DNA of 64,000 bases from Escherichia phage ECBP2. Of this stretch, positions 37,939 to 51,064 are shown one piece after another (positions within the stretch are counted from its first letter, which is position 1; the number at the start of each line of letters is the position of its first letter). The position numbers and the translations under genes are program-made. The notes beneath the pieces are model-generated. The model was not told the DNA's origin and did no database searches. It saw only the letters and a list, made by a program, of their open reading frames with translations. The stretch lies in the sequence record NC_018859.1; one strand, given 5' to 3'.

Positions 37939-39722
37939 GGTCGTGCCTCCCCGTCTTGTGTGAGCAGAGAAGCTGCATCCTCACCATTGGTCAAGACAAA
38001 CGGATTAGCTTCATCAACTTCATGATCTTCTCGTTCTACAAGTCGACCTGTTTCATTGATGTACTTGGTGTAGCAAACACCTGTCTGACCATAGTTACGC
38101 TCTTTGAGGAGTCGTATGATTGACAAGTTCTTGCCTAACCCATCAGCTTGCTTATCTCGTTCAAAACCAATGATGCACTGACACCAACGCATTAGTGAAC
38201 GTGAACCAGTGAACTGAACCTCTTTCACCTGTCCACCTTCTTCGTGAGGAGCACCACCTGCCGGAGCATTCAAGTGAGATAATACAAAAGCAGTGAAGTC
38301 TAATTCCTTACACATACCAGCAAGCTCTGAGGCAATCTTACTGATTTCTGTATTCACTTCAGATGGGGTTAGGTGAGAGACTAGCGCAGTGATGTTATCA
38401 AGAATGATAAACTTACACTGATTCTCGACTACCCAGAAGCGAATACACTGCTTAATATCATCCCACTCATTCTGACCGAAGTTATCATACAAGAAGAATT
38501 TATCAGCATAACGAAGTGCTTCATCACGTAGCTGAGATTCCTCATATTCAACATCAGGTCGGTGGAAAGGTACAGATGCTGACTTACCTGCAATGTTTTT
38601 AACAGACATGCCTACCTTCTCTTCCAAGAAGAAGCCACCACCATTAAACCCATGTTCAAGGCAAAGCCATGCTACCAGTTCGTGTGCGATCAGGGTTTTA
38701 CCTGAACCAACACCACCACCGATTGCAACCATCTCTCCCCAACGAATACCGAAGGTCATTTCATTCAGAGTTTTCCACGGATAAGGAATACCCCACTCCG
38801 CTTTCTTCAGAGCATCTTCTAAACAATCAAAGACAGTAACAGCACCAGCAGGTGATTCCCGCTTCGCTGAATATTTCAGATTGTTGAATAACTCTTGACC
38901 TCGACCAGCGAGTAACATGTCATTTGCATCTTTGATTTCCTTCTCTTGACCATTGTAAGTGAAGGTTCCTTTCGGAATACGAGCAAATTTAACATGGGGG
39001 TATAATGCACGACCTTTAGTTAATGCAATCTCACCTGCATCATCATTGTCCATGCAGAGCACAATCTCCTCAAAACCATTCAAGAAGTCACGGTTACGTG
39101 AGAGAACGGAAGAGATTGAACCTGCACCAAACGGTAGAGATACACACGCAGGTTTGATGTTTGTAGCGTTCGTAAACGCAGTGAGCACATGGAAGCCAGA
39201 CATACAAGAGAGTGGGTCTTCAAAGATGAAGAGCTTCTTGTTGTACACGTCACCACGTTGTGCTTGAGCCATACCGAATAGGTCAGCTTCTTTAACACTG
39301 CCGATGTAATAGAATTTCTTGCTGTCCAGAAGCTTAACTTCATAACCAACAATGTTTCCATCACGTTCACGAGGGAAGAAATAACTATCAGGAGTTTGCC
39401 CATCCGTCTGACTTAAACCGATACGACATTCATATCGTTCAGAGACAGCTTTAGGAATCAAACGACGAGTAAGCTCGCCCTGAGGTAGCTCTAAGCAATC
39501 GTCTAAGATCTCTCGGAGTTCTTCAGGGGATAGTTCTTTCTTCTCATTCGGTGTAGGAGTTGTTCCCTTTTCGAAAACTTCATAACTGCCACAACGATTA
39601 CAACTGCCCCACTCTTCACCGGACTCTTCGTTTCGGAAGAGAATCATGTGATTGTGGGTCTTATCACGACCATGAGAGATACATTCCTTACAACCTGTAT
39701 CTCCTAGGATGATCTTTGACAT
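37932..39722 (-). CDS. primase-helicase (T7 gp4-like)
   Basis: N-terminal Cys4 zinc ribbon (CKEC...CNRC), primase region, Walker [10 protein letters not shown] of a DnaB-type helicase. Confidence 0.85.
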
Positions 39723-39758
39723 GCTCTATCCTCCTTGGAATTCCTTGAGCAGACTTCT

Positions 39759-39965
39759 TCAATAAAACGAACGTATTTCTTCCCACACATCATCTTGAAG
39801 ACTTTTAAAACCCTGTAAAGCTGATTGGGTTCTCATGATAAAATCTTCAGAATGTTTATTGCGGTCAAGCATACTGACAAACTTATCATAACGGTTAATC
39901 TTCCACCGTAACTTTAAGTAATCAGACTCAAGCTTTCTCAGCTTCTGTCGCTCAATTACTGTCAT
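39759..39965 (-). CDS. hypothetical protein
   Basis: Track ORF 39759-40064; internal Met chosen to limit overlap with the upstream gene. Confidence 0.35.
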   Translation of the reverse strand: MTVIERQKLRKLESDYLKLRWKINRYDKFVSMLDRNKHSEDFIMRTQSALQGFKSLQDDVWEEIRSFY

Positions 39966-40383
39966 CCTGTTCACCTGCCAGATACGCTGTCCAATCACCA
40001 GATTCAACCAGAACATCTTGTTCTTCGTCGATATGATAAATCCACGCTTCCACAGTTTCACCACTATCCAGCACTACTGGAATTAGTGTACGATTATAGA
40101 AGGTATATGGGTTGTCTTTACCACGATAACCTTCCAGACCGTCATATGGACCTTCCAGACCAGCTTGAGTTGTTTCAAACACTTCCACACGAACAGGCTT
40201 ACCATTACTGTCATGTTCCAGAGATACACTTGGGAAGTATGCTGTGCAATACTGATACAGGTTACAGTTGTTTACTGTCCACCCTTCACCAATAGACACA
40301 CCACCTGCACGAGCGTTGATAGCGTGGTTGTGTTGACCTTTACGAAGAGAACCATACGTTGCAACTAATACTTTATCAGACAT
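39952..40383 (-). CDS. gamma-glutamyl cyclotransferase-like (AIG2/GGCT fold) protein
   Basis: VATYGSLRKGQHNH (YGSL motif) and LEGPYDGLEGYRGKDNPY resemble the GGCT core. Confidence 0.55.
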   Translation of the reverse strand: MSDKVLVATYGSLRKGQHNHAINARAGGVSIGEGWTVNNCNLYQYCTAYFPSVSLEHDSNGKPVRVEVFETTQAGLEGPYDGLEGYRGKDNPYTFYNRTLIPVVLDSGETVEAWIYHIDEEQDVLVESGDWTAYLAGEQDDSN

Positions 40384-40387
40384 TACA

Positions 40388-40585
40388 TTACCTTTTGTTT
40401 AGAATTTCTTTTGTACAAGAAGTCCCGTTACACACGAGAATTGTTTGAGTTACAGAATCGACAACCGTTACATGGCTGCCACATTGAGTTATAATTTGAC
40501 CTCTCCCTGAATCTTTAGAGATGCATTCATCAGCGGCGATTGCTGATACGCTGAATAAGGAGAGGAGGAGTAAAATCTTTTTCAT
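40388..40585 (-). CDS. secreted Cys-rich small protein
   Basis: Signal peptide MKKILLLLSLFSVSAIA; four Cys in a 48-aa mature part. Confidence 0.45.
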   Translation of the reverse strand: MKKILLLLSLFSVSAIAADECISKDSGRGQIITQCGSHVTVVDSVTQTILVCNGTSCTKEILNKR

Positions 40586-40591
40586 GACTGT

Positions 40592-41008
40592 TTACCAATC
40601 GTATAGGAAACCAGAATATCCGGAGAAAATGATTGATCGAACATCTTTTTCAGAGATTAGTTCAAAACTCTTCTTAACAGCTTCCACAAGATCACTGTTC
40701 GACAATTCTTTTTCCTTGAACCAATACTCTTCAAAAATATCAGAGAAGGTGTAGGTTCGATATCTCTCCAAGTCATAATAATGGTCTACTGCATAGTTAA
40801 TAACTCTGCTGATAGAGCTAGAAGCCACAGGGAAAAGGGAGCTGTGCTCCATAAACAGGCACCAGCGATTAAAGAGTGGTATGTCTTCATCTTTCAGAAG
40901 ACTCTCTAGCTCTTCCTTTGCCTCTTTCTTATGCTTCTCAAAGAGGTTTTTGGAATACTCTACGTCTAAGATACGACTTTTAAACATATCCAGTTTATTA
41001 TCAACCAT
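40592..41008 (-). CDS. hypothetical protein
   Basis: 138-aa ORF with GGAGG RBS. Confidence 0.45.
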   Translation of the reverse strand: MVDNKLDMFKSRILDVEYSKNLFEKHKKEAKEELESLLKDEDIPLFNRWCLFMEHSSLFPVASSSISRVINYAVDHYYDLERYRTYTFSDIFEEYWFKEKELSNSDLVEAVKKSFELISEKDVRSIIFSGYSGFLYDW

Positions 41009-41064
41009 TTACAACCTCCAGTTAAATTCGAACTAGCCTCCTCTTTCGAAGAGGCTAAAGCAAA

Positions 41065-41250
41065 TTATTCTACTTCGAAGTGTTTGATCACACCAGTCAA
41101 CACATCAGATTGGAATGTACCTACCAACTCCACTCCTCGGAAGAAGTTAACACTTGTTCCAAGCGATTCAAAACGCTCTGCTTGAATATCTAGAGATTGA
41201 ATATTACCTTCTGAGTTTACTGTACGAAACATGATTGTGTATTTATTCAC
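41065..41250 (-). CDS. hypothetical protein
   Basis: 61-aa ORF. Confidence 0.35.
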   Translation of the reverse strand: MNKYTIMFRTVNSEGNIQSLDIQAERFESLGTSVNFFRGVELVGTFQSDVLTGVIKHFEVE

Positions 41251-41489
41251 AGAGTTGTTACTCCCTTATCTTCTTGTGCAATTGCGATGATACGCTCAAC
41301 ACATTCCATTGAATATTTATCACCTCGTTTAAGGAAGGTGACAATTGCAGAGAACTGATTACCAATCATTCTCTTGTTTGTGATTCCAAACTCTTCACAG
41401 AGTTGGTTAATAGCTTTACGAGAACCAACAATCAGAGGTTCTTTTTGTTCGGTCATTCCACGACTGATCAAATCTTCGATAGACAACAT
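41247..41489 (-). CDS. hypothetical protein
   Basis: 80-aa ORF, ATGA overlap. Confidence 0.4.
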   Translation of the reverse strand: MLSIEDLISRGMTEQKEPLIVGSRKAINQLCEEFGITNKRMIGNQFSAIVTFLKRGDKYSMECVERIIAIAQEDKGVTTL

Positions 41490-41514
41490 TACAAATTCCT
41501 TTTGTTTTTTTTAA

Positions 41515-42762
41515 TTACAGAGTTACTGCTACTTCACTACCTTCAACAGTTACAGACTCTAACTTACGAGGGTTATTAATCTGTGCTGGATGGACTGGAA
41601 CGTTCCAACCACTGCGGTAGAAGTTACGACCATCGCAGAACAGAATGACATTGGCAGACATTGCATTAGGTTGCAGGTTGTTGTAAACATGACGAATATT
41701 TGCAATCCAGTAACCACGAGACAAAGTATAACCAGTAGGTGCATTACGAATAGTTTGAGTATTCATCTGACCTTCCAGTTGCATTTCTTCAGGAACCACA
41801 TCAACTGAATCAACCGGTTGTGCTACTTGGCCTTCCAGTGCAAAGTTTTCATCGTCAGCACTTTCACTGTCAGCAACCAACTCACCGTCTCCGTCTTCGA
41901 TTGGAGCTTCAACAGGAGTCTGGTAAACTACTTTATACTGAGGAGTATAGAGAGGGTTTTGAGCTTTAACAAACTCAAGGATGTTGTGACGGTAGATATC
42001 CAGAGTTGTGCCAGTTAGGCCCGGTGCTGTATTAACTTCCAGTACCCATGCTTCTTGACCTTTGGTGATGATATCAACTGCACCGAAATCTAGACCCATT
42101 GATTCAACAGCTTTCACTGCGTTGATCAGAGAGGCATCGTTCGGAACGTCTGTGAAGGAACTTGAGTAAACCCAACCAGTGTGATGGTTACGAACATCTT
42201 CACGATAGTTAGGGTCTTCACGATAACCGTTACGACGAATCTTTTTCTGAACATAGGTGATAGCACCTTTGAACACATGGACACGCCATTCACGACGTGG
42301 GCCTTGAATGCCTTTAGTGTACAGTTCAGCTCGACCAAGACCATCACCCGGTTCTACAACAACAATGCCCGAACCAGAGTGACCAGTCAGCTCATGGCGC
42401 TCATACACAATATTACCAGTGTTTGACCACTCTTGAGCAGTCTCTTGAACATCTGTGTATTCCACAGTTTTAACACCTGCTTGGCCCATCACGCTGAAAG
42501 CACGACGTTTGTTCGCTGCCATATGTAAGGCTGCGGTACGGTTAAGGACGGTTGCAGAACCAAAGAATGATTCAGGATAGCGACGGTTCCCGTAGTTAAC
42601 AACCACATCACCTTCACGAGAACGCCAGCGGCTATTCTCTGAAAGAAGACCCATCACGTTAGCATTGATGCGTTCATCACGGATAGTATCACTGATAGCA
42701 GATACCAGAGCGTTAACAGAATCAGACGGGCCATACGGAAGAACACGGATACGAGTAGTCAT
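41515..42762 (-). CDS. ATP-grasp ligase (RimK/GshB-like) with C-terminal extension
   Basis: VYERHELTGHSGSGIVVVE, REWRVHVFKG, GLDFGAVDIITKGQEAWVLEVNTAPGL match ATP-grasp motifs. Confidence 0.7.
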   Translation of the reverse strand: MTTRIRVLPYGPSDSVNALVSAISDTIRDERINANVMGLLSENSRWRSREGDVVVNYGNRRYPESFFGSATVLNRTAALHMAANKRRAFSVMGQAGVKTVEYTDVQETAQEWSNTGNIVYERHELTGHSGSGIVVVEPGDGLGRAELYTKGIQGPRREWRVHVFKGAITYVQKKIRRNGYREDPNYREDVRNHHTGWVYSSSFTDVPNDASLINAVKAVESMGLDFGAVDIITKGQEAWVLEVNTAPGLTGTTLDIYRHNILEFVKAQNPLYTPQYKVVYQTPVEAPIEDGDGELVADSESADDENFALEGQVAQPVDSVDVVPEEMQLEGQMNTQTIRNAPTGYTLSRGYWIANIRHVYNNLQPNAMSANVILFCDGRNFYRSGWNVPVHPAQINNPRKLESVTVEGSEVAVTL

Positions 42763-42763
42763 T

Positions 42764-42994
42764 TTAGATACCTTTTAGTTTAAGAATTTCGTTACGACAG
42801 GATTGAATTTTAACTTCGATTGCCCAATACTCGGCGAACATTTCGTCTTCTTGGTCATCGTTTGGTGAATCAATTAGGTTGAAAGCAAACGGATACAGCT
42901 TTCGCTGCTCCGTCACCATTTGTTGAAGTCGGAGCTGTTGATACTCCAGCATTGTCAGGTGAGGCTTAGCTCCCTTGCTTGACATGAGGCTCAA
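42764..42994 (-). CDS. hypothetical protein
   Basis: 76-aa ORF inside the ligase cluster. Confidence 0.4.
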   Translation of the reverse strand: MSLMSSKGAKPHLTMLEYQQLRLQQMVTEQRKLYPFAFNLIDSPNDDQEDEMFAEYWAIEVKIQSCRNEILKLKGI

Positions 42995-43199
42995 CTTTAA
43001 TCCCCTTCATTTTCACGTAGTCAGCCAACACGTTGTTAATAACGGTTGGAAAAGGGATTTCAACTGGAGAGTCAACCAGCTTCCCAATACCTTCTTGCAT
43101 CCACTTCTGAATGGCTCGAAGGTTATCACATCCTGTGCTTGTCATTGGGATACGTCGAGTAGTTACAACGTTATCCAACATCAATTTACGAACTTCCAT
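42966..43199 (-). CDS. hypothetical protein
   Basis: 77-aa ORF inside the ligase cluster. Confidence 0.4.
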   Translation of the reverse strand: MEVRKLMLDNVVTTRRIPMTSTGCDNLRAIQKWMQEGIGKLVDSPVEIPFPTVINNVLADYVKMKGIKVEPHVKQGS

Positions 43200-43210
43200 A
43201 ACTTCACCTC

Positions 43211-45244
43211 TTAATGTTTACCTTTACAGTAATCTGAATTACAGATCACCCTGTTTTCTTTGTTTAGTGAGCAAATTTCTGCATCACGCCACGGAATTTG
43301 TTTATAACAGACTGCACAAAACCCAATTGAAGTCCAGAGGGCTTTTGTGAACTCAGCTGTTCGTTGTCCGTCGTAACTGACAACTGTTTTTCGGAGAGTT
43401 GTTTGCTTTTCTGGAAATGTCTCCGCTTTCTCAGCGGGCACCTCCTTTGGGGCATTCTTTGGACCATAAACAGAGATGGCATAGGTATCGCCACCACGTT
43501 TTTCCAAATAAGAGTTTGGAACATCAGACAATTCAATGTCACCAGAACGTTTAGCTGAGCTGACCATTACAATCATCCGGCTAAGCATACGCTGATCAAC
43601 ACGAACTGCTACTTCAGGGCGGCGTGGGTTAGTTGTGTCAACTGCTTTAGTCCAAATGTAACCTTCAGACAATGTAGTGTTAGTCACTTTGTCTTTGATT
43701 TCTTTGGCACAGACATAACAAATGTCTTCACCACGCAGTTTACTCATTTCATTATCAAACTCGAAATCAGTTTTAACATTACCACACACAGCACAGACAC
43801 CCAAAGGAATGTCTTCATCTTCTTCAGATGGTTTGGAGAGTGCTTCGAAACAGGCCGGATGCCAATATGCTTGGTAAGCGAACACAGCTTTCTTAGCATC
43901 TTTCCAATCAATGTGCTTATCACAACCACCACAATCACCGTGAGAATGTGATTCCCAGAACTTACGAGTGACTTCTACACCATTCTTAGTGATGAAGGAG
44001 TCTTCTAAGTCAAAAGGGATATCATCATCAAAATCAGCGGTGGTGCTTTGAGGCTCCTTATCGGTAGCGTCAACAAACAGCCCTGAAGTTAGTACGAGGC
44101 GAATCATACTGTCCACTTCGGAGATACAAGCAACTGTCCCGCGATACACTACCTTTGGGTTTTCGAGAGCCTTCAAGTACTCACTCTTGGCTACATTATG
44201 AACATCACCCTCAACATATTCTTGAGCAGCATCATCATAAATATAACCAACCATCTTACCACGGTCAGTGTTGTTGTAAGCATGGAACTCGTGAGGGATG
44301 ATATCCACACGACCATCACGACGATATGGAAGACCACGATCGGCAGCCAGTTTATTCTGATCTTCAATCGCTTTACGACGGCGAATGTCTCCGCTTGTCA
44401 CGCCGGGCTTGTCGTCTTTGTTTCCGTAAATGTCGCTTGTGCTGCTGCTTGATTTGTTTGTCTGTTGGCTCTGATATAGTGAGGAGTTCGAGTAATAGCC
44501 GCCCCAGCGACTCGTTACCGTAAAAACCGGAAGCTTGTGCTCCACCTCTTGAGTCAGAGTCATACGGTTGCCAGACAAATCAAAGATGTATTCAGTTCCC
44601 ACTTTACACTCAAAGTGATCATTGATACGGTTCTTGTGTGACTTGGAACGATTAAGAATCCACATCAACATATCTTCTTCAGAAGCACCAAACCAATCCA
44701 GACCACAACGGGCCAGATGGAAAGGACGTTCATCGTTACGAATGATATGCAGAGTATTGTCTTTGGCGTCATGCCAGATTAAAGTGAACGCACCATCCAA
44801 CTTCTGGATAGTCTCTGCTGCACCAATGGTGTTGATTGAATGACAGATGTTTTCGCTATCAACTTCGAAGTTCTTATGGTCAGGTAACAGCTCTTGGTCC
44901 ATCAATGTACCATTGTGAACCAGAGTAATGTCACCATGAGAGAACGGGTGAGCATTTCGAGCATTGACAGCGCCACGAGTGGCATGTCGGCTATGACCAA
45001 CAATCCACGCTGGAGGAACTACATAGTTCGTAAGCCCCTTAGTAATATTCGTGTACTCTGTCTGAAGCATGAAAGCATAAGAAGGAAGTGCTTCTTTATA
45101 AGAAAACACTCTTGCATCACTTTTACGCTGACCGAACACACCAGTTGAGTGCTGACCACGGAAGACTCCGGCATACAGAAGCTGGTTGAATACGTCTAAG
45201 TCTGTGGAGGTCATGTTGCCCCCAGCTAATACGATACCACAAAT
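43211..45244 (-). CDS. class-II glutamine amidotransferase (Ntn hydrolase) with Cys-rich C-terminal region; probable AUU start
   Basis: In-frame upstream extension reads stop-K-I-CGIVLAGGNMTS...; CGIVLAGG...VFRGQHSTG...GHSRHATRGAVNARNAHPF...LVHNGTL is the GATase-II signature with the nucleophile Cys directly after an ATT codon; AGGTGGA RBS 7 nt upstream. Confidence 0.7.
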   Translation of the reverse strand: MCGIVLAGGNMTSTDLDVFNQLLYAGVFRGQHSTGVFGQRKSDARVFSYKEALPSYAFMLQTEYTNITKGLTNYVVPPAWIVGHSRHATRGAVNARNAHPFSHGDITLVHNGTLMDQELLPDHKNFEVDSENICHSINTIGAAETIQKLDGAFTLIWHDAKDNTLHIIRNDERPFHLARCGLDWFGASEEDMLMWILNRSKSHKNRINDHFECKVGTEYIFDLSGNRMTLTQEVEHKLPVFTVTSRWGGYYSNSSLYQSQQTNKSSSSTSDIYGNKDDKPGVTSGDIRRRKAIEDQNKLAADRGLPYRRDGRVDIIPHEFHAYNNTDRGKMVGYIYDDAAQEYVEGDVHNVAKSEYLKALENPKVVYRGTVACISEVDSMIRLVLTSGLFVDATDKEPQSTTADFDDDIPFDLEDSFITKNGVEVTRKFWESHSHGDCGGCDKHIDWKDAKKAVFAYQAYWHPACFEALSKPSEEDEDIPLGVCAVCGNVKTDFEFDNEMSKLRGEDICYVCAKEIKDKVTNTTLSEGYIWTKAVDTTNPRRPEVAVRVDQRMLSRMIVMVSSAKRSGDIELSDVPNSYLEKRGGDTYAISVYGPKNAPKEVPAEKAETFPEKQTTLRKTVVSYDGQRTAEFTKALWTSIGFCAVCYKQIPWRDAEICSLNKENRVICNSDYCKGKH

Positions 45245-45321
45245 TTTCTAATCCACCTGAAGGGTAAACCCTTTCATCTAATTAACCTTTAAATGCGCCC
45301 TTTATCAGAGCGCCCATTGTA

Positions 45322-46422
45322 TTACAGCAGTCGTTCTAATTGCATTTCCAGATGGTCTGGAATATAACCAGTGACGTTATCATCACTGCTACCCGATTCA
45401 CGCATCAATGCAAACATGTGACGAATTTCACGAACCGTTGCGATTCGAGTGCTTTCAATCTGAGGGGTGTAATAGGTCATGATCTCTTCATAGACAGCGT
45501 TGGCATTACCACGAACATATCCCAAGAAACCATAGAAGTCACCCATATCACGCAAGTTGATAAGGACTTCACCATCAGGGCCAGTCTGTTGTACACGAAC
45601 ACGACCAACCAGAGTAACAGAATGTTCACGACAGAACAGAATATCACGAGCCAAACGATAACCACCAGTCAGGTCATCATCATTAGGTGTGTAGTCCAGA
45701 GGCAGATACTGAATCATAGGAGCGAAGCGTAGCTCATTCAGTTTCTCAACATATGCTTCATTGTCCAAATCTGCATACTCAACAGCCAGTTTCTTAAGAA
45801 CCAAGAAGCGGTTGACCAGATTAAGGAGTTGGCTTTTCTTCCACTTTGGCTCTGAGATACGAAATTCAACAGAACCAAACTGAGCCAGAGGTAATAGGTT
45901 AAGGGAGGTGTACTTGTCCCAGCTATTAACAAGAGTATTGAAGAAGGCTTCACCATCTCGGTTGAACGCTGAGGAAGCATTCATTACCTGTGCTTGAACA
46001 ACAGCAAAGGCAGGACAGAAGTTGCTACGATAACGATGATATCCAGAACATTTGAACATCATCTTTTCATAGAACGTCCATCCAAGAATTACTTTCTTCA
46101 GGATATTACTATCAGCGTCACGCATATCCATATGAACGTGAGTAGAGCAGCGCCAAGTCCCTTCAGCTTCAGAGTCTTGTACTGCTTCACTCAGATTGTT
46201 AATAGCACTAAGCAATTCTACACCGTTGTAAGGCCGTGCACAAACCATCTCACAGCCATCACGAAGTGAACCATCTTCAGTACAGACCCAAAGATCTGCA
46301 TCAATTTCAGAGGTTCCTTCAACTTCCAGCTCGATGCCAATACCACACTGAAAAGCGATGCTTGGGTGCGGCTCAGCCAGACGAGCATTACGGTATCCAA
46401 AAACTTGTGCTACGGTTGTCAT
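45322..46422 (-). CDS. amidoligase (glutamine-synthetase-fold carboxylate-amine ligase)
   Basis: QCGIGIELEVEG and WRCSTHVHMDMRD resemble the GIELE / HVHxG motifs of GCS2-type amidoligases. Confidence 0.55.
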   Translation of the reverse strand: MTTVAQVFGYRNARLAEPHPSIAFQCGIGIELEVEGTSEIDADLWVCTEDGSLRDGCEMVCARPYNGVELLSAINNLSEAVQDSEAEGTWRCSTHVHMDMRDADSNILKKVILGWTFYEKMMFKCSGYHRYRSNFCPAFAVVQAQVMNASSAFNRDGEAFFNTLVNSWDKYTSLNLLPLAQFGSVEFRISEPKWKKSQLLNLVNRFLVLKKLAVEYADLDNEAYVEKLNELRFAPMIQYLPLDYTPNDDDLTGGYRLARDILFCREHSVTLVGRVRVQQTGPDGEVLINLRDMGDFYGFLGYVRGNANAVYEEIMTYYTPQIESTRIATVREIRHMFALMRESGSSDDNVTGYIPDHLEMQLERLL

Positions 46423-47045
46423 AACGTTTCCACCAACTCTACATTATATGATGACAGATCTGAAGAAATATGCTTGAACTTCTCCAGAAGGTTTAAAGAT
46501 TGACGACCATTGTCGCCGTTACCAGCAGAAAGATCAACTTGACCTACAAAAGCCCCTTTGTAGTAAACTTTACCATCAACAGGGTTAATATAGATGAAGC
46601 GAGTAACCAGACCTTCAAAGTCAGGGTTGAACAGGTTATACACCAGCTCTCCTGGAATCGAACGTCCCATTGAAGGAGGTGCACCACGCAGCTTGTTCCC
46701 CATCAGACCCTTAGCTCGCTGACGAACAGGGTTGATATGAGTCCAGCTTACCATGTTGTTACCATGTTGCAGATAGCCCACATCTGGAGATTCCAGAATC
46801 AGGCTCTGATCAAACACAGGAATACCCTGAACAACCTGTCGCTCAAACTGCCCTTCGGAGTTCTTAGACCAGCGTTCAACTTCAAAGGTTAAGGCCATTT
46901 CGGCTTCGTGAGAGAAGTCGTCTTCCCCAAAGCGGTTTGGTTGGGTTACGTTAAGCACATACAGAGGGAGATTAATCCCTCGTTCTGCGCGTTGGGCAAT
47001 CCATGTTCCGCAATAATAATGCTGAAAATCTCTTAACAGGCTCAC
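46419..47045 (-). CDS. hypothetical protein (ligase cluster)
   Basis: 208-aa ORF, ATGA overlap with the amidoligase. Confidence 0.45.
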   Translation of the reverse strand: MSLLRDFQHYYCGTWIAQRAERGINLPLYVLNVTQPNRFGEDDFSHEAEMALTFEVERWSKNSEGQFERQVVQGIPVFDQSLILESPDVGYLQHGNNMVSWTHINPVRQRAKGLMGNKLRGAPPSMGRSIPGELVYNLFNPDFEGLVTRFIYINPVDGKVYYKGAFVGQVDLSAGNGDNGRQSLNLLEKFKHISSDLSSYNVELVETL

Positions 47046-47054
47046 GATAACACC

Positions 47055-47861
47055 TTAGATAATCTGAAGTTGAGAGGAGAACTTATCCGCTTCTTTAACA
47101 TCATTGCTGTTAATGATGTTGTGAAGCTTTTCGATAGGCAAACGGGAGTGCAGAGACATGAGGATTTCCATGTCACAGCCCTGAATAACCTTATCAACTT
47201 GATCGTAAACAAACTTACGAGTGGACTGTTCACCAATCCAGAAGTTCGACAGAGAACGATATTCAATACCGTAATCTTTATAACGAATCGCCGATGCCTT
47301 ACCGTAAAGTTCTTTACGACGAGTGTCCTTGTCCATCACAACCGCTGGAAGTGACAGGAAGTAATCGCACAGCACACCCAGCATCATCTGAGTCTGACGA
47401 CTAATTTCCAGTGTACCAGTAACACCGAGGTGAACGTGACCTCCAGCGGTACGCAGACCTTTGTCTGTCGCTACCGGAGATGGGTTTTTCTGACCAGTGA
47501 AGGCGTTGAAATCAGGAGTACAGCCAAATACGAAGGCTGACGGGTGGAATGATTCCAGCTCTTCAGCAGTATACACATGAGAGCTAATCCCAAGCGCAGC
47601 TTCCATACCACGTTCATGGAGAACTTTGTTGGTCAGATCAATACCACGCTGGATGTTATCATCAAACGCTTCAAACCCTTTCTGTGGGTTAATATCAAAT
47701 TCAGCCAGAACGTTGTCTTCTTGAAGACGAACATCAGGGGCCAGATCGATTTTGTTATCTTTAGAACAGCCCAGCTTACCAGCCACAGAGGTGATAACAC
47801 CAGAAGCAGTACGAACAAACATTTCAGGGTCAGAACCAATAAGGAAAGCACGCTTAGTCAT
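47055..47861 (-). CDS. second amidoligase-like protein
   Basis: FLIGSDPEMFV and AGGHVHLGV loosely mirror the amidoligase motifs; start at internal Met MTKRAF. Confidence 0.4.
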   Translation of the reverse strand: MTKRAFLIGSDPEMFVRTASGVITSVAGKLGCSKDNKIDLAPDVRLQEDNVLAEFDINPQKGFEAFDDNIQRGIDLTNKVLHERGMEAALGISSHVYTAEELESFHPSAFVFGCTPDFNAFTGQKNPSPVATDKGLRTAGGHVHLGVTGTLEISRQTQMMLGVLCDYFLSLPAVVMDKDTRRKELYGKASAIRYKDYGIEYRSLSNFWIGEQSTRKFVYDQVDKVIQGCDMEILMSLHSRLPIEKLHNIINSNDVKEADKFSSQLQII

Positions 47862-48804
47862 TGTAATACTCCACAAGTTCATCAAAAAGGGAAACAACAC
47901 GGGCACCAGCTTCTTCTGGTGTCATTGAGGAAGGTACTGCTTGCATCAAGCGTTCAATAAAACTGCGAACAGTAATTCTGTCCATACGCTGATCTAATAC
48001 TTCACGTTTATGGCCTGCACACATTGACCAGAGACGTAACCACTCACTCATACTTTCATAATAGTCAGGGTCTTGGTCACGACGACGGGCCATACTACGA
48101 AGAACTCCGTCATTATGGTTTCGTACATAACCATCTCTGTTAGCGTCAATACCAAATATATTCTGAACCCATACGTTTTCAGAAAATTCATCAGTTGAAC
48201 AGACCAGTGGCAAAAATGCGATTGCACTCATTTCACCGGTAAAATAGGTCGCTGCTGATTCATCATCAGTATCCACATCATGTGAATAATCCCAACGACC
48301 AAAGAAGTTACGACTTAAACCAGCTAAGCGTAAAGCTAAGCCGATTCGTTGTCGCTTGAGTAACTCTTCCTTGTCTTGAACGCCTTCCTGAAGGAACTCC
48401 ATTCCCATAAAATCCCCATCCAGATAACTCCGGAGGGTCATTAATCCAGTAAACACCTTGTCTGCTGGATGGTCTCGAAGGTTCACGGCAACTGAGTTCA
48501 CCGAAGTGACAGAGAACATGTTTTTATAACAAGACATTGAGTTAAAAATGTCTGTTGCTTCAACTAAAGCTCTTTCGATATCTTTAGCTGGTGTGCTATA
48601 AAAGTTGTGAGGCCAGAAGTTAATAACTCCAATTTCTGAAGTTCTATCACGAAGGCTTGAGAGATTGATACTGTCGCCATTAATGTCTGTAACAGAATAC
48701 ATATGCTGACAGTTGAAAGTACCAAAACAAGCTCGCCCTCTGAACACTGACTCACCAAAGTCCTCTGATGGTGTTACCGGAGCAGTCGATGCGGAGATTG
48801 ACAT
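47854..48804 (-). CDS. hypothetical protein (ligase cluster)
   Basis: 316-aa ORF. Confidence 0.45.
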   Translation of the reverse strand: MSISASTAPVTPSEDFGESVFRGRACFGTFNCQHMYSVTDINGDSINLSSLRDRTSEIGVINFWPHNFYSTPAKDIERALVEATDIFNSMSCYKNMFSVTSVNSVAVNLRDHPADKVFTGLMTLRSYLDGDFMGMEFLQEGVQDKEELLKRQRIGLALRLAGLSRNFFGRWDYSHDVDTDDESAATYFTGEMSAIAFLPLVCSTDEFSENVWVQNIFGIDANRDGYVRNHNDGVLRSMARRRDQDPDYYESMSEWLRLWSMCAGHKREVLDQRMDRITVRSFIERLMQAVPSSMTPEEAGARVVSLFDELVEYYND

Positions 48805-48812
48805 ATTCGCCT

Positions 48813-50033
48813 CTATTTATTGAAGAATAATTTTTCCAAAATGTTTTCCCACTCTTCTGAGGGACGTACTGTATAATTACTACCTGTCAGTCCATTGGAC
48901 ATACTACTGATAATGTTATACATGTTGTAGCTTCGAGCTGAAGCTGTTTCATTGTTCCAGTTATAACCGAACACAATTTTAGCAAAAGATGTTTCAGATT
49001 CAGCCACCTCTCGGATAAATTCAACCAAGAGTGACTTTTCTGTGATGATTGGGCGGGTATCTTCCGACAGATGGCAATATTGAGGCAAAAGGATTGGCAA
49101 GAACATCGAGTTGTTCACTCGACAATCACGAACACCTTCACTGCGATAGATCAGACTGGAGAAGTCTTCATCACGCAGGTGGCCTTCACCTTCAGTGTAT
49201 TCACACTGTCGCCATTTGGTCTGGCGAGGCTCAATCATCGTACTACCAACACCCACTGTATACAGAGATGCTTGGAAGATACAGGAATCGTAATCATTCC
49301 CTGTTAAAGCAACACGTTCGTTACCGAATACATTCACTGAAGAGTTGATCAGTCGGCTGAATGCAAGAGAGGCTAAAGGAGACCAGCCCTTCTTATACAT
49401 CTTGTTCAACATTTCATACACAGCAGATTTTTCATCATCTGTATAGAATGTGCGATTCAACATCAGATAGAACAGAGCACGATCAGCGGGACAGCCATCA
49501 GTGCAAACACCCATGAACCCCACTTCATGCCACACCAGACATGAGTCAGAGTCTTTGTCCATAAATGCTGCAAAGGTTTCCATAACAACACGATCAGTGA
49601 TGTCAGGACGGTTGTTTTCTTCTGCCCATGTTTCCACATGAGAAGGAGGACGAGGGTCTTCATTTTCTAACCCTTCACGGAAATACTGAGTAGCGATATA
49701 TTCAGTATCACCATAACGTCTTACACCGTGAGCTGGAAGATGTGTTCCGGAGTTCCAGATATACTTGATTTCAGACATAGGCAACATATTCTCAAGAACG
49801 TTCTCTTCAGCAGTGCCTTGACGAACCATCATATTTTTACTCCACACCTTGATGCGGATATTCCAGCCGTAGTTGCTGTCATACGTGTTGTAGTAGTCAG
49901 GATCATCGTCTTCATCATCTTCATCATAATCACCACCCTGATAGTAACCTGCTTTAAGGAAACCATAACAAGGAGGCCAGACGGTTACAACATCTTCTGA
50001 TTCTTTCCAGCTTTGAAGTGTTACAGGGAACAT
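48813..50033 (-). CDS. hypothetical protein (ligase cluster) with acidic N-terminal tract
   Basis: 406-aa ORF; DYDEDDEDDDPDYY. Confidence 0.45.
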   Translation of the reverse strand: MFPVTLQSWKESEDVVTVWPPCYGFLKAGYYQGGDYDEDDEDDDPDYYNTYDSNYGWNIRIKVWSKNMMVRQGTAEENVLENMLPMSEIKYIWNSGTHLPAHGVRRYGDTEYIATQYFREGLENEDPRPPSHVETWAEENNRPDITDRVVMETFAAFMDKDSDSCLVWHEVGFMGVCTDGCPADRALFYLMLNRTFYTDDEKSAVYEMLNKMYKKGWSPLASLAFSRLINSSVNVFGNERVALTGNDYDSCIFQASLYTVGVGSTMIEPRQTKWRQCEYTEGEGHLRDEDFSSLIYRSEGVRDCRVNNSMFLPILLPQYCHLSEDTRPIITEKSLLVEFIREVAESETSFAKIVFGYNWNNETASARSYNMYNIISSMSNGLTGSNYTVRPSEEWENILEKLFFNK

Positions 50034-50044
50034 CTTTTACCTCT

Positions 50045-50407
50045 TTACTCTGCTACCAGAAGGCCCAGAGATTTGCGAATGTAGGCAATGCTACGGAAGT
50101 TTCGGTAGTTTTCTTGGAAGCGCATTTTTTCGAATTCTGCTTCCTGAAGTTCTACCTCTGCTGCATTGTATCCTGCCACAGCCAAACTCACCACATCCTG
50201 AGGTAAGGTATTACGACGACGAATAAGATATTTATTCGCCTTTAACTTGCTTTGTGCACGAGCCATTTTGGCCTTTGCCGCCTTGATGCCATGAGCAATC
50301 CAGAGCAATTGCTGCTCCAAATCATTCTCGTCCATGCCACCCAAATCATTTGCTACTTTATGCAGCGTAGACAGGTTCACATGGCCTTTGATGGGGCGTA
50401 GGTTCAT
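50045..50407 (-). CDS. hypothetical protein
   Basis: 120-aa ORF. Confidence 0.4.
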   Translation of the reverse strand: MNLRPIKGHVNLSTLHKVANDLGGMDENDLEQQLLWIAHGIKAAKAKMARAQSKLKANKYLIRRRNTLPQDVVSLAVAGYNAAEVELQEAEFEKMRFQENYRNFRSIAYIRKSLGLLVAE

Positions 50408-50571
50408 AACTTCTCCTGTTTATCACATTGATTGGTAAGCCAGTTATAAGACCCTCTGTTGTTCTTGCTTAATTCACAAGATACAAAGGAAGTCACACGG
50501 GCAAACCCCACGGTGGCTAAGCAAATAAAGATTGCTGCCAATAAGAACTTAACTTTCAACTTATTATCCAT
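50404..50571 (-). CDS. small secreted/membrane protein (55 aa, below track cut-off)
   Basis: MDNKLKVKFLLAAIFICLATVGFA...; stop overlaps the next ATG. Confidence 0.3.
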   Translation of the reverse strand: MDNKLKVKFLLAAIFICLATVGFARVTSFVSCELSKNNRGSYNWLTNQCDKQEKL

Positions 50572-50590
50572 ACAACCTCTTCTTTGAACT

Positions 50591-50616
50591 TAAAAAAGGA
50601 CTCTCCTAAGAGAGCC
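50591..50616 (-). terminator. rho-independent terminator
   Basis: GGCTCTC-TTAG-GAGAGTCC hairpin + U6 on the - strand. Confidence 0.5.
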
Positions 50617-50684
50617 AAGCTTTAAGGCCAATTAAATAGATATCACCCAATATCTGTGGATAACCTGCTCTTAAAATATTCTAT

Positions 50685-50815
50685 CCGACGGATGTTCGAG
50701 GACTGTTCCTCTCCCTAGCATCGGCCCCATACGGGTAAGATTAAATTAAGTTTAGGTTAGTTGAGCCAGAATAGCTCACATAGCCCTCTGATACTCACAA
50801 GGGCTATAGATGTTA
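50685..50815 (-). other. conserved 3' non-coding element, copy 1
   Basis: About 130 nt starting at the stop of gene 50813-51064; core CTCACATAGCCCTCTGATAnnCACAAGGGCTATA...GATGTTAC is shared with 56348-56465. Confidence 0.5.
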
Positions 50816-51064
50816 CTCTGTGGCTCCGTCGAAGCGTAGGATTGCTGTTGGAACAGGAATCACAACCATGTCAATCTCTAAACGGAAGAGATGGCCTGTG
50901 CTTAGCTGAACTGCTGTTACCGGTTTAGCGATACCACCAACAGATGCTGAGGGGATTCGAATAAAGAAATCCCCCGGATATTCCGTTGCACGAAATACAT
51001 CTCCCGGTGACATATCCTTTACTTGGGTAATTGATTCAGGAGGGGTTTTATTAGCAATTTGCAT
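50813..51064 (-). CDS. small GDVF-motif family protein
   Basis: VKDMSPGDVFRA... Confidence 0.5.
   Translation of the reverse strand: MQIANKTPPESITQVKDMSPGDVFRATEYPGDFFIRIPSASVGGIAKPVTAVQLSTGHLFRLEIDMVVIPVPTAILRFDGATE

What the first reader, a model, noticed from the sequence alone, without database searches (positions are those of the whole stretch)
39952..50407. Phage-borne peptide/amide ligation gene cluster: ATP-grasp, class-II glutamine amidotransferase, two GS-fold amidoligases, GGCT-like enzyme and unknown partners
Ten kilobases of co-oriented, tightly packed genes encode enzymes that together make, amidate and cleave gamma-glutamyl or peptide-type amide bonds, plus four large proteins (208, 316, 406, 120 aa) with no recognisable motif. 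No substrate-recognition or carrier protein is identifiable, so the product is unknown; it could be a small peptide-like metabolite or a modification of a phage or host macromolecule. This is the strongest candidate for an undescribed system in the window.
Basis: partly seen in the sequence, partly recalled or inferred. Interest (0 to 1): 0.8.

Follow-up and report, generated by a model that had tools for sequence, protein, structure and literature searches.

The report
Conserved phage amide-ligase module, function unknown
This is a real ten-gene phage cluster of enzymes that make, amidate and cut glutamate-type amide bonds; it was predicted by computer in 2009 and is shared by hundreds of podoviruses, but nobody yet knows what molecule it acts on.

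Summary
Window 39952-50407 (all minus strand) encodes a GGACT gamma-glutamyl cyclotransferase, a RimK-like ATP-grasp ligase, a class-II glutamine amidotransferase, two glutamine-synthetase-fold ligases (Amidoligase_2 and the 'phiEco32-like COOH-NH2 ligase type 2'), and proteins with no Pfam match.

The window is a phiEco32-like podovirus (Gordonclarkvirinae; 96% identical to phages TH43 and Bas88). So this is not an undescribed system. It is the phiEco32-type amidoligase module that gave Pfam PF14395 its name. I found no experimental function for it.

What I add:
- The same gene order, ending at the primase/helicase gene, occurs in LUZ24-, K4/CVT22- and phiM6-type phages; 7-11 shares it as far as its locus was read.
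- Catalytic residues of four of the five enzymes are invariant across seven lineages; the fifth (GGACT) across three.
- The amidotransferase starts at a conserved ATT codon that supplies its nucleophile cysteine.
- The 208-aa protein is a phage-only beta-barrel protein.
- The 406-aa protein gives a confident model with no close structural match in the PDB, and in relatives it belongs to a paralogous pair.

Most likely it is one pathway of successive ATP-dependent amide ligations, with a removable gamma-glutamyl group, on an unidentified acceptor tied to host takeover. DNA hypermodification is disfavoured.

The parts
50599..50616 (-). Terminator-like hairpin followed by a T-run, upstream of the cluster. 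It is the probable 5' boundary of the transcription unit.
   Evidence: Consensus scan. A terminator is annotated at the equivalent place in phage 4E8. This is a prediction only.
50045..50407 (-). 120-aa basic protein (pI 9.7), specific to Gordonclarkvirinae. Whether it belongs to the module is uncertain.
   Evidence: No Pfam match. PHROG 11370, function unknown. pI. No BLAST counterpart in the LUZ24, 7-11 or CVT22 loci.
48813..50033 (-). 406-aa protein of a phage-only fold, first member of the pair upstream of the ligase. Within its family the invariant residues include an MFPV N-terminus, PPCYGF, IWNSG, DR..FYLM.NR, D249-x-C251, W274-x-Q276 and H285-x-R287.
47854..48804 (-). 316-aa protein, second member of the pair and a probable distant paralog of the 406-aa protein. 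Shared motifs are PAD[KR]..F..LM..R and W.Q....G..G[YH].R[ND].
   Evidence: Alignment A3. hhalign aligns the same motifs, but the scores are not significant (E 0.42; E 0.02 against the 7-11-type family). The paralogy is therefore inferred, not shown.
47055..47861 (-). GS/GCS-fold carboxylate-amine ligase of the 'phiEco32-like COOH-NH2 ligase type 2' family. The ORF extends up to 47906, but the probable start is Met16.
   Evidence: Pfam PF14395, 33.5 bits. PHROG 3815, E 1e-111. 34 invariant residues across seven lineages, including DPE, the H157-x-H159 pair and E215-x-R217. 309 phage records hold a homolog.
46419..47045 (-). 208-aa conserved core partner (PHROG 4877). It is built of small SH3/Tudor/KOW-like beta-barrels plus a disordered conserved basic loop (residues 106-128). 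K163 is invariant across six lineages; the model places it between two strands.
45322..46422 (-). Amidoligase_2, the second GS-fold ligase.
   Evidence: Pfam PF12224, 28.4 bits. PHROG 7469, E 2.5e-144. Invariant E31/E33/E35, H95/H97 and E186/R188.
43211..45244 (-). Class-II (Ntn) glutamine amidotransferase, 677 aa, translated from an ATT start codon. It carries a C-terminal region of about 450 aa of unknown type with three Cys-rich clusters.
   Evidence: GATase_6, E 1e-14. The in-frame ATT-TGT-GGT sits behind a GGTGGA Shine-Dalgarno sequence. ATT and its upstream 25 nt are identical in all Gordonclarkvirinae loci, including those with no downstream ATG. Invariant residues are C2, G3, H84/R86/T89, H110-N111-G112, D129-S130 and C668/C673. 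The C-terminal region has no PDB sequence match.
42966..43199 (-). 77-aa DUF7195 protein, found directly downstream of the amidotransferase gene (in the direction of transcription) in three lineages.
   Evidence: Pfam PF23825, E 3e-19. The same family is found in 7-11 gp101 and LUZ24 gp20.
42764..42994 (-). 76-aa small ORF between DUF7195 and the ATP-grasp gene.
   Evidence: ORF list. Annotated in Bas88. No family match.
41515..42762 (-). RimK-like ATP-grasp ligase with a C-terminal extension of about 150 aa.
   Evidence: PHROG 2599, E 2e-175, and PHROG 20552 for the tail. NCBIfam MptN 1.3e-8 and rimK_fam 3.4e-6, far under their cut-offs. Invariant S129-G130-x-G132, D230 and E242-x-N244.
41065..41489 (-). 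Two small ORFs of 61 and 80 aa, conserved within the subfamily.
   Evidence: No family match.
40388..41008 (-). Variable insert, not part of the core: a DUF7020 protein (138 aa) and a 65-aa protein with a signal peptide and four cysteines.
   Evidence: Pfam DUF7020, E 8e-26. This stretch accounts for the 6% of the query not covered in TH43, TH34 and Bas88, but it is present in MLP3 and IME267.
39952..40383 (-). GGACT/AIG2-type gamma-glutamyl(amine) cyclotransferase, the last enzyme before the primase/helicase gene.
   Evidence: Pfam GGACT, E 7.6e-16. PHROG 2520, E 6e-43. Invariant YG.L and E84-G-Y (three sequences). The related phages CVT22, K4 and phiM6 carry a Peptidase_C26 gamma-glutamyl hydrolase instead or in addition.

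Best explanation
This is the phiEco32-type phage amidoligase module. It is a single multi-enzyme pathway whose genes lie close together, placed just before the replication genes; SU10 authors class its products as early.

Proposed sequence of steps:
1. One GS-fold ligase activates a carboxylate as an acyl-phosphate and joins glutamate through its gamma-carboxyl to an amine on the acceptor.
2. The RimK-like ATP-grasp enzyme adds a further amino acid, most likely glutamate, to a free carboxylate.
3. The class-II amidotransferase hydrolyses glutamine and hands the ammonia to the second GS-fold ligase. That ligase converts a carboxylate into a carboxamide.
4. The GGACT cyclotransferase removes the gamma-glutamyl group as 5-oxoproline. 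This works as an eraser or as a deprotection step. In some relatives a C26 gamma-glutamyl hydrolase takes this role.

The phage-only partners probably choose and present the acceptor. These are the 406/316-aa pair, the 208-aa beta-barrel protein and DUF7195.

I think the acceptor is most likely a protein, host or phage, or a protein-bound group. The purpose would then be host takeover or counter-defence.

Shown here: the enzyme families, their intact active sites and the co-inheritance of the components.
Inferred only: the order of steps, the amino acid used, the acceptor and the biological role.
For: Enzyme families and conserved catalytic residues.

The amidotransferase keeps the residues typical of class-II glutaminase domains (C2, R86, N111-G112, D129).

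The same gene order, ending at the primase/helicase gene, is seen in several phage groups:
- Gordonclarkvirinae
- LUZ24, PaP3, tf, UFV-P2 and Rembedalsseter
- CVT22 and K4
- phiM6
In 7-11 and GAP52 the module has the same order, but the loci read do not reach a primase gene.

Genes abut or overlap by a few bases.

A gamma-glutamyl-bond-cleaving enzyme is present in each lineage where I looked for one, though its family differs: GGACT, Peptidase_C26 or both. This points to a gamma-glutamyl intermediate.

All the recognisable enzymes in the cluster make or cut amide bonds. No oxidoreductase, PLP enzyme, methyltransferase or transporter was found. The accessory proteins look like adaptors: beta-barrels, Cys-rich clusters and a new fold.

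The partners are phage-only.

The proteins are made during infection. ATP-grasp, amidotransferase and YtfP-like peptides were found in SU10 preparations (PMC4281155).

Directed evolution of the Bruynoghevirus phage FJK on eight host strains gave independent missense changes in both the amidoligase and the amidotransferase genes in both evolved lines (PMC11450229). This suggests an interaction with a host-specific factor.
Against: No acceptor, tag peptide or carrier protein has been identified.

GGACT and C26 enzymes that have been characterized act on free gamma-glutamyl compounds (general biochemical knowledge). That fits a small-molecule product equally well.

The closest NCBIfam relatives of the ATP-grasp enzyme include cofactor-tail ligases (MptN, CofF) as well as RimK.

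The homology of the 316-aa protein, and of the LUZ24-type pair, to the 406-aa fold is not statistically established.

No experiment on any member of the module was found in the searchable literature.
Confidence: 0.4

Rival explanations
1. The module makes or remodels a small molecule. Candidates are a gamma-glutamyl amine such as a polyamine conjugate, a glutamyl tail on a pterin, folate or deazaflavin-type cofactor, or a short non-ribosomal peptide or antimetabolite. The gamma-glutamyl group would serve as a transient handle.
For: Known enzymes of these families mostly act on small molecules (general knowledge):
- PuuA/PuuD: a GS-like ligase plus a C26 hydrolase.
- EgtA/EgtC: a GCS-type ligase plus a class-II amidotransferase-fold hydrolase.
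- BtrJ/BtrG in butirosin biosynthesis: an ATP-grasp enzyme plus a GGCT-like enzyme.

From the tools here:
- The best NCBIfam hit of the ATP-grasp enzyme is the tetrahydromethanopterin:glutamate ligase MptN, and EgtC appears among the amidotransferase hits.
- C26 hydrolases replace or join GGACT in relatives.
- The tf record annotates its GGCT as BtrG-like.
Against: No tailoring enzymes, carrier protein or exporter are present. Three to four conserved non-enzymatic, phage-only partners are hard to place in a metabolite pathway. All NCBIfam hits are far below their family cut-offs.
Confidence: 0.27
2. The module builds a covalent modification of phage DNA or of a nucleotide precursor. This would explain the unusual resistance of Gordonclarkvirinae to restriction-modification systems.
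For: - The BASEL study reports strong restriction-modification resistance in these phages with no known modification pathway (PMC11990801).
- The window holds 30 EcoRV sites, so avoiding sites cannot explain resistance to that enzyme.
- The module always sits next to replication genes.
- Amidoligase and amidotransferase domains co-occur with thymidine-hypermodification genes in metagenomic contigs (PMC8989533).
- The 208-aa protein has SH3/Tudor/KOW-like barrels and a basic loop.
Against: - Phage Rembedalsseter carries the complete module. A Nanopore comparison of its native and amplified DNA found only nicks and no base modification (PMC11780129).
- The window's thymidylate synthase is ThyX, not a ThyA-type hydroxymethylase.
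- No 5-HMUDK or aGPT-Pplase Pfam hit appears in the module.
- The 406-aa fold shows no match to any PDB structure, including the DNA glycosylases predicted to resemble aGPT-Pplase.
- Thirteen 6-bp palindromes are completely absent where 2.5-17 are expected. That is the signature of DNA that remains exposed to restriction.
- The 208-aa protein is acidic overall, pI 5.5.
Confidence: 0.1
3. The module modifies a cell-envelope precursor, for example by amidating or extending a peptidoglycan stem peptide or a surface glycan. The effect would be to block superinfection or to time lysis.
For: ATP-grasp ligases and amidotransferase-coupled ligases act on peptidoglycan precursors (Ddl, MurT/GatD; general knowledge). 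All hosts found are Gram-negative Proteobacteria.
Against: Apart from the 65-aa signal-peptide ORF in the variable insert, nothing in the module was identified as a membrane, lipid-carrier or glycan-handling protein. There is no similarity to Mur ligases. The module is not linked to the lysis genes.
Confidence: 0.07
4. The genes are independent auxiliary metabolic genes. Each would boost host glutamine or nitrogen metabolism separately, with no shared product.
For: Several genome papers and annotation pipelines label them this way, as 'auxiliary metabolic gene; moron'.
Against: - The order of seven to nine genes is kept across very distant phages.
- Phage-only partners are interleaved with the enzymes.
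- No enzyme reaches the cut-off of any housekeeping family.
- The module is retained even in the smallest genomes of the subfamily.
Confidence: 0.04

Closest known systems
phiEco32-type phage amidoligase system (Pfam PF14395 'Phage phiEco32-like COOH.NH2 ligase-type 2'; Iyer, Abhiman, Burroughs and Aravind, Mol Biosyst 2009; computational prediction only)
   Same: The same families are present: the type-2 COOH-NH2 ligase, Amidoligase_2, a class-II amidotransferase, an ATP-grasp enzyme and an AIG2/GGACT enzyme. The phage group and gene order are also the same. The window is 75-96% identical in DNA to annotated members.
   Different: Nothing essential differs; this is a member. Details added here: the conserved partners (208-aa barrel protein, 406/316 pair, DUF7195), the ATT start codon and the breadth of the shared gene order. 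The 2009 paper was not available to read, so what it says about the system is from my memory.
Puu-type gamma-glutamylation of amines (PuuA GS-like ligase plus PuuD Peptidase_C26 hydrolase)
   Same: A GS-fold ligase is paired with a gamma-glutamyl-bond-cleaving enzyme. The relatives CVT22, K4 and phiM6 carry a C26 hydrolase in the module.
   Different: There is no oxidase or dehydrogenase between the ligation and hydrolysis steps. Two ligases, an ATP-grasp enzyme and an amidotransferase are present in addition. The partners are phage-only, and there is no family-level match to PuuA.
RimK (poly-alpha-glutamylation of ribosomal protein S6) and the related MptN and CofF cofactor glutamate ligases
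   Same: The ATP-grasp enzyme is nearest to this group and keeps the nucleotide-binding and E-x-N motifs.
   Different: Scores are far below the family cut-offs (22 bits against 331 for the S6 ligase). There is a 150-aa C-terminal extension, and the enzyme is embedded in a multi-ligase module.
Butirosin side-chain pathway (BtrJ ATP-grasp plus BtrG gamma-glutamyl cyclotransferase, using gamma-glutamyl as a protecting group on a carrier protein)
   Same: An ATP-grasp ligase is combined with an AIG2/BtrG-like cyclotransferase. This suggests a gamma-glutamyl group that is added and later removed. The tf record annotates its GGCT as BtrG-like.
   Different: No acyl carrier protein, decarboxylase or monooxygenase is present. 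The setting is a phage, not an antibiotic gene cluster.
Pupylation (PafA/Dop GS-fold ligase and deamidase with the Pup tag), and the bacterial ATP-grasp / GS-like ligase / Ntn-hydrolase / Alpha-E systems predicted as peptide-tagging systems
   Same: A GS-fold ligase works together with an amide hydrolase or Ntn-fold protein, and a role in tagging proteins is possible.
   Different: There is no Pup-like tag and no hit to the Pup-ligase family. The Ntn protein here keeps the residues typical of class-II glutaminase domains rather than looking like a peptidase.
Phage thymidine hypermodification clusters (5-HMUDK, aGPT-Pplase pairs, PLP enzymes; Lee et al. 2018 and 2021)
   Same: Both are phage clusters next to nucleotide and replication genes. 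Both include a paralogous pair of proteins of unclear type. Amidoligase and amidotransferase domains sometimes co-occur in such clusters.
   Different: There is no hydroxymethylase, DNA kinase or aGPT-Pplase. A phage carrying the module showed no base modification by Nanopore sequencing.

Membership tests
phiEco32-type phage amidoligase module | Type-2 COOH-NH2 ligase (PF14395) | tested here: met
   33.5 bits against a cut-off of 25. PHROG 3815, E 1e-111.
phiEco32-type phage amidoligase module | Second GS-fold ligase, Amidoligase_2 (PF12224) | tested here: met
   28.4 bits against a cut-off of 22. The metal- and ATP-site-like residues are invariant.
phiEco32-type phage amidoligase module | Class-II (Ntn) glutamine amidotransferase with an N-terminal cysteine | tested here: met
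   GATase_6, E 1e-14. Cys2 is supplied by the conserved ATT start.
phiEco32-type phage amidoligase module | ATP-grasp ligase | tested here: met
   Pfam RimK falls just below its cut-off (19.8 against 21 bits). PHROG 2599 gives E 2e-175, NCBIfam gives MptN and rimK_fam, and the E-x-N motif is invariant.
phiEco32-type phage amidoligase module | AIG2/GGACT cyclotransferase, or a C26 hydrolase, in the same cluster | tested here: met
   GGACT, E 7.6e-16. C26 hydrolases occur in relatives.
phiEco32-type phage amidoligase module | Same gene order as in phiEco32-like and LUZ24-like phages | tested here: met
   The 7-11 record notes cite phiEco32 genes 82-86 as counterparts.
Thymidine hypermodification pathway (5-HMUDK / aGPT-Pplase) | ThyA-type dUMP hydroxymethylase or TET/JBP oxygenase that supplies 5-hmdU | tested here: not met
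   The window's thymidylate synthase is ThyX (PF02511, E 3e-44).
Thymidine hypermodification pathway (5-HMUDK / aGPT-Pplase) | 5-hmU DNA kinase and aGPT-Pplase proteins | tested here: not met
Thymidine hypermodification pathway (5-HMUDK / aGPT-Pplase) | Non-canonical base in virion DNA | not testable with these tools
   Indirect evidence only. Rembedalsseter, which carries the module, showed nicks but no base modification by Nanopore sequencing. The window's strong palindrome avoidance points the same way.
Pupylation-like protein tagging | PafA/Dop-family ligase and a small tag ending in GGQ or GGE | tested here: not met
   No Pup-ligase Pfam hit. None of the small ORFs of the cluster ends in GGQ or GGE (translations).
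RimK S6-glutamate ligase | Score at or above the equivalog cut-off | tested here: not met
   NF007764 scores 22.1 bits against 331. rimK_fam scores 26.6 against 143.
Puu-type gamma-glutamyl amine catabolism | Gamma-glutamyl-amine oxidase and aldehyde dehydrogenase between the ligase and the hydrolase | tested here: not met
   No oxidoreductase domain in any ORF of the cluster.
Butirosin-type gamma-glutamyl protecting-group pathway | Acyl carrier protein that bears the growing chain | tested here: not met
   No PP-binding or ACP hit. A GGACT/BtrG-like enzyme is present.

The most novel reading that the evidence does not exclude
The module is a phage-encoded, reversible system for glutamylating or gamma-glutamyl-tagging proteins.

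In this reading the GS-fold ligases and the RimK-like enzyme write and extend an amide-linked tag. The amidotransferase caps it as an amide. GGACT or the C26 hydrolase erases it. A new-fold paralogous pair (406 and 316 aa) provides target specificity.

The 208-aa barrel protein would act as scaffold or carrier. Its Lys163, invariant across six lineages and placed by the model between two strands, would be the attachment site, in the manner of lipoyl, biotinyl or LysW-type carrier proteins.

The system would serve as a host-takeover or counter-defence device in hundreds of podoviruses, including phages used for therapy.
Probability: 0.2. Interest if true: 0.85.

Novelty: new member of a known kind. 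Interest (0 to 1): 0.55.

Why it matters
The module is one of the most widely conserved non-structural, non-replication gene sets in a large group of podoviruses. It is present in phiEco32/Kuravirus, LUZ24/Bruynoghevirus, 7-11, Zobellviridae and phiM6. Several of these groups are used in phage therapy, yet I found no experiment that says what the module does.

Working it out would do three things:
- Assign function to about 10 kb (around 13%) of these genomes.
- Probably reveal a new kind of phage-host chemistry, either an amide-linked modification of a host target or a phage-made metabolite.
- Characterize at least one protein fold that has no close structural match in the PDB.

There are hints that the module matters for infecting different hosts. 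Amidoligase and amidotransferase mutations arose in both lines of a host-range evolution experiment. Gordonclarkvirinae also resist many defence systems, although nothing here ties that resistance to the module.

Tried and rejected
Tried, with no result:
- Sequence profiles of the 208-, 316- and 406-aa families against all PDB chains gave nothing significant. The same was true for the amidotransferase C-terminal region.
- The AlphaFold-database fold library was not available.
- PADLOC defence models gave no hits.
- Rfam found no RNA family in 39000-52000.
- The phage sigma-factor promoter motif TAATGTATA has no exact copy inside the cluster. The sigma-70 scan found fewer sites than shuffled sequence.
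- hhalign could not establish that the 316-aa protein, or the LUZ24-type gp14/gp15 pair, is homologous to the 406-aa family.
- Seven literature searches found no functional study. A Klebsiella fimbria paper that mentions amidoligases concerns an unrelated TupA-like enzyme. The Pa223 cryo-EM preprint contains none of six search terms for protein modification.
- The Iyer 2009 and Savalia 2008 papers are not held in the library.

Considered and rejected:
- A transglutaminase or papain-like reading of the 406-aa protein, based on its conserved Cys, His and Asp. No structural support.
- aGPT-Pplase identity for the 406/316 pair. No Pfam match and no structural match of any kind in the PDB.
- The amidotransferase being catalytically dead for lack of Cys2. 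This was resolved by the ATT start.

Full report
**What is in the sequence.** Window 39952-50407 carries a run of minus-strand ORFs that abut or overlap by a few bases. In order of transcription they are:

| Position | Product |
|---|---|
| 50045-50407 | 120-aa protein |
| 48813-50033 | 406-aa protein |
| 47854-48804 | 316-aa protein |
| 47055-47906 | COOH-NH2 ligase |
| 46419-47045 | 208-aa protein |
| 45322-46422 | Amidoligase_2 |
| 43211-45214 | class-II amidotransferase |
| 42966-43199 and 42764-42994 | two small ORFs |
| 41515-42762 | ATP-grasp ligase |
| 41065-41489 | two small ORFs |
| 40388-41008 | a variable insert |
| 39952-40383 | GGACT |

The primase/helicase gene follows at 37932-39722.
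- GGACT, E 7.6e-16.
- GATase_6, E 1.1e-14.
- Amidoligase_2, 28.4 bits against a cut-off of 22.
- COOH-NH2_lig PF14395, 33.5 bits against a cut-off of 25.
- The ATP-grasp enzyme falls just under the Pfam RimK cut-off (19.8 against 21 bits). It is unambiguous in PHROGs (E 2e-175), and NCBIfam places it nearest the alpha-L-glutamate ligases MptN, RimK and CofF.

The 208-, 316-, 406- and 120-aa proteins have no significant Pfam or NCBIfam match.

**Where the window comes from, and what was already known.** The region is 96% identical to Escherichia phages TH43, TH34, TH42 and Bas88. It is 89% identical to a further group and about 75% identical to EP335 and KBNP1711. All are phiEco32-like prolate podoviruses of the Gordonclarkvirinae. 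Bas88 annotates the same genes.

The Pfam family that the ligase hits is called 'Phage phiEco32-like COOH.NH2 ligase-type 2'. From memory, this family and the phage gene neighbourhood were defined in the amidoligase survey of Iyer et al. 2009. That paper is cited but could not be read. The cluster is therefore not an undescribed system.

I found no experimental function in seven full-text searches. Genome papers merely list the genes. A proteomic study of phage SU10 detected peptides of the ATP-grasp enzyme, the amidotransferase and the YtfP-like protein, so the proteins are made.

**The enzymes look active.** I aligned each enzyme with its counterparts from six other lineages: an uncultured 90-kb phage, 7-11, LUZ24, CVT22, K4 and phiM6. 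For GGACT only two counterparts were found. The residues expected at the active sites are invariant:
- Type-2 ligase: DPE, H157-x-H159, E215-x-R217.
- Amidoligase_2: E31/E33/E35, H95/H97, E186/R188.
- ATP-grasp enzyme: the glycine-rich loop, D230 and E242-x-N244.
- Amidotransferase: C2-G3, R86/T89, N111-G112, D129-S130.
- GGACT: YG.L and E84-G-Y.

The amidotransferase ORF as listed mechanically lacks the nucleophile cysteine. The in-frame sequence just upstream reads ATT-TGT-GGT-ATC-GTA (I-C-G-I-V) behind a GGTGGA Shine-Dalgarno motif. The ATT codon and the 25 nt before it are identical in all eight Gordonclarkvirinae sequences examined. This includes those with no ATG ten codons downstream. 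K4 has ATC and CVT22 has TTG at the same position. The gene therefore starts at 45244 and encodes a normal N-terminal-nucleophile enzyme. Bas88 annotates it this way; phage 4E8 does not.

**The genes are inherited together.** tblastn with the type-2 ligase finds 309 phage records from Escherichia, Pseudomonas, Vibrio, Aeromonas, Proteus, Salmonella, Cronobacter and other hosts. The annotated neighbourhoods show essentially the same order in most of them:
- one or two large unknown proteins;
- the type-2 ligase;
- a protein of about 190-210 aa;
- Amidoligase_2;
- the class-II amidotransferase;
- a small protein;
- the ATP-grasp enzyme;
- a gamma-glutamyl-cleaving enzyme;
- the primase/helicase gene.

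In CVT22, K4 and phiM6 the amidotransferase (and the C26 hydrolase) sit upstream of the type-2 ligase instead. The order was seen in LUZ24, PaP3, tf, UFV-P2 and Rembedalsseter, in CVT22 and K4 and in phiM6. 7-11 and GAP52 show the same module order, but the loci read do not reach a primase gene.

The cleaving enzyme varies between lineages. It is GGACT in most of them, Peptidase_C26 (the gamma-glutamyl hydrolase / PuuD family) in CVT22 and K4, and both in phiM6. Replacing one gamma-glutamyl-bond cleaver by an unrelated one is good evidence that a gamma-glutamyl amide is an intermediate. This degree of shared gene order refutes the idea of unrelated, independently acting metabolic genes.

**The partner proteins.** The 208-aa protein belongs to PHROG 4877, together with LUZ24 gp17 and 7-11 gp104.
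- Within its close family it has invariant motifs ESPDVGY, PVRQRxKG, LFNP and YYKG.
- Across six lineages only G113, K163 and G168 remain invariant, plus a basic R..[KR][KQ]G motif.
- Its model (pLDDT 84) consists of small SH3/Tudor/KOW-like barrels. The conserved basic loop at residues 106-128 is disordered, and K163 falls between two strands.
- It is acidic overall.
- Among one genome each of 185,579 bacterial and archaeal species only two contigs matched: a Peptococcaceae MAG contig and a 656-bp Conexibacter scaffold. I take these to be phage-derived, without having checked.

The 406-aa protein has many invariant residues and gives a very confident model (pLDDT 89, pTM 0.90).
- Against predicted viral structures it matches only uncharacterized phage proteins.
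- In GAP52 both hits (314 and 290 aa) have the lengths of the two genes immediately upstream of the ligase.
- In the 7-11/GAP52 group these two genes are paralogs (hhalign probability 85%, E 6e-6). The 406-aa family is related to both, E about 6e-4.
- The 316-aa protein shares two motifs with the 406-aa protein, but the scores are not significant. The LUZ24-type pair could not be linked by sequence.
- The 406-aa family is tiny: 24 representatives among 1.84 billion proteins.

The 77-aa DUF7195 protein follows the amidotransferase gene in three lineages. The 120-aa protein is lineage-specific. The insert at 40388-41008 is variable.

**How it most likely works.** All recognisable enzymes in the cluster make or cut amide bonds. 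The scheme I consider most probable is this:
1. A GS-fold ligase joins glutamate by its gamma-carboxyl to an amine of the acceptor.
2. The RimK-like enzyme adds a further residue to a carboxylate.
3. The amidotransferase supplies ammonia to the second GS-fold ligase, which amidates a carboxylate.
4. GGACT or the C26 hydrolase removes the gamma-glutamyl group.

This order is inference from what these families do elsewhere (RimK, PuuA/PuuD, EgtA/EgtC, BtrJ/BtrG, PafA; general knowledge).

The acceptor is unknown. I lean towards a protein or protein-bound group for four reasons:
- The module has several conserved adaptor-like partners and no tailoring enzymes or transporter.
- Between phage groups the paired new-fold proteins are too diverged for BLAST to link them, whereas the enzymes are still found at 25-50% identity.
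- Directed evolution of a LUZ24-like phage on eight host strains hit the amidoligase and amidotransferase genes independently in both evolved lines.
- Gordonclarkvirinae are unusually insensitive to host defences, although nothing here ties that to the module.

A small-molecule product fits the chemistry almost equally well and is the main rival.

**Testing the DNA-modification idea.** The BASEL authors suspect a DNA modification in these phages because of their resistance to restriction. Amidoligase and amidotransferase domains also occur in some thymidine-hypermodification clusters. The evidence against the module playing this role is as follows:
- Rembedalsseter has the complete module, and its native DNA showed only nicks in a Nanopore comparison with amplified DNA.
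- The window encodes ThyX, not a hydroxymethylase.
- No DNA kinase or aGPT-Pplase was detected in the module.
- The window avoids 6-bp palindromes strongly. The overall observed/expected ratio is 0.67, and thirteen sites are absent where 2.5-17 are expected. This argues that the DNA is exposed to restriction enzymes.

One observation stays unexplained by site avoidance. EcoRV sites are twice as frequent as expected, 30 against 15. Some other anti-restriction mechanism must therefore exist in these phages.

**Comparison and verdict.** The cluster meets every defining feature of the phiEco32-type module. It fails the defining features of the following (see the membership table):
- pupylation;
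- the Puu pathway;
- RimK proper;
- the butirosin pathway;
- thymidine hypermodification.

It is a further member of a kind that is known only as a computational prediction. The claim of novelty is not.

The finding is still moderately interesting. I found no experimental function for the module. It occupies about 10 kb in hundreds of phages, including therapeutic ones. Its partner proteins include a fold with no close structural match in the PDB.

Noticed in passing
window 45242-45244 (minus strand): The amidotransferase gene starts at an ATT codon behind a GGTGGA Shine-Dalgarno sequence. ATT and its upstream 25 nt are identical in all Gordonclarkvirinae loci examined. K4 uses ATC and CVT22 uses TTG at the same position. 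Some GenBank records (for example 4E8) start the gene at a downstream ATG and so lose the catalytic cysteine. In E. coli an AUU start is known from infC and is sensitive to IF3 (general knowledge), so translation of this enzyme may be regulated.
   Followed up: yes
window 40388-41008 (minus strand): A variable slot lies between GGACT and the small ORFs. It holds a DUF7020 protein and a 65-aa protein with a signal peptide and four cysteines. The slot is filled in MLP3 and IME267-type phages and empty in TH43 and Bas88, the closest relatives.
   Followed up: partly
whole window: 6-bp palindromes are strongly avoided. Thirteen are absent, including PstI, SacI, SphI, BamHI, KpnI and StuI sites. 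GATC is at 0.46 of expectation and there are only 3 CCWGG sites. By contrast GATATC (EcoRV) and AACGTT are twice as frequent as expected. This is odd, given that these phages are reported to resist EcoRV.
   Followed up: partly
window 51326-51739 (minus strand): A 137-aa protein just upstream of the cluster matches the ProQ/FinO RNA-chaperone family (E 3.7e-6, 27.3 bits against a cut-off of 27).
   Followed up: no
window 35939-37387 (minus strand): The 482-aa 'nucleotidyltransferase' next to the exonuclease and dCTP deaminase genes has no Pfam hit at all. The SU10 authors call its counterpart the nucleotidyltransferase domain of a class II CCA-adding enzyme. Its role is unknown, and the BASEL authors link it to a possible DNA modification.
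   Followed up: no
window 33826-34392 (minus strand): A 188-aa protein, whose apparent Bas88 counterpart is annotated as a DNA-binding protein, has a partial ferritin-like domain match (E 2e-7).
   Followed up: no
window 32230-32697 and 31587-32237 (minus strand): An HNH_3 endonuclease gene directly abuts the ThyX thymidylate synthase gene; the two ORFs overlap by 8 nt. It looks like a homing-endonuclease insertion.
   Followed up: no
window 62377, 29690, 22625 (minus strand); 12974, 22696 (plus strand): These are exact copies of TAATGTATA, the phiEco32 sigma-factor (gp36) promoter consensus. None lies within the amidoligase cluster. This fits transcription of the cluster by read-through from upstream or from host-type promoters.
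   Followed up: partly
L020 (phage tf) and other LUZ24-like loci: Several of the mapped single-strand nick sites of phage tf (TACT/GTGAC) lie inside the module genes: the 208-aa homolog, the amidoligase and the ATP-grasp gene. This is probably coincidental, because the nick sites are spread over the whole early region.
   Followed up: no
record OP650935.1 (Poriferisphaera phage ZRK32, 21.9 kb; no locus fetched): A phage reported from a deep-sea planctomycete carries a homolog of the 208-aa protein that is 44% identical to LUZ24 gp17. That is the level of identity seen among Pseudomonas podoviruses, so the host assignment deserves a check.
   Followed up: no
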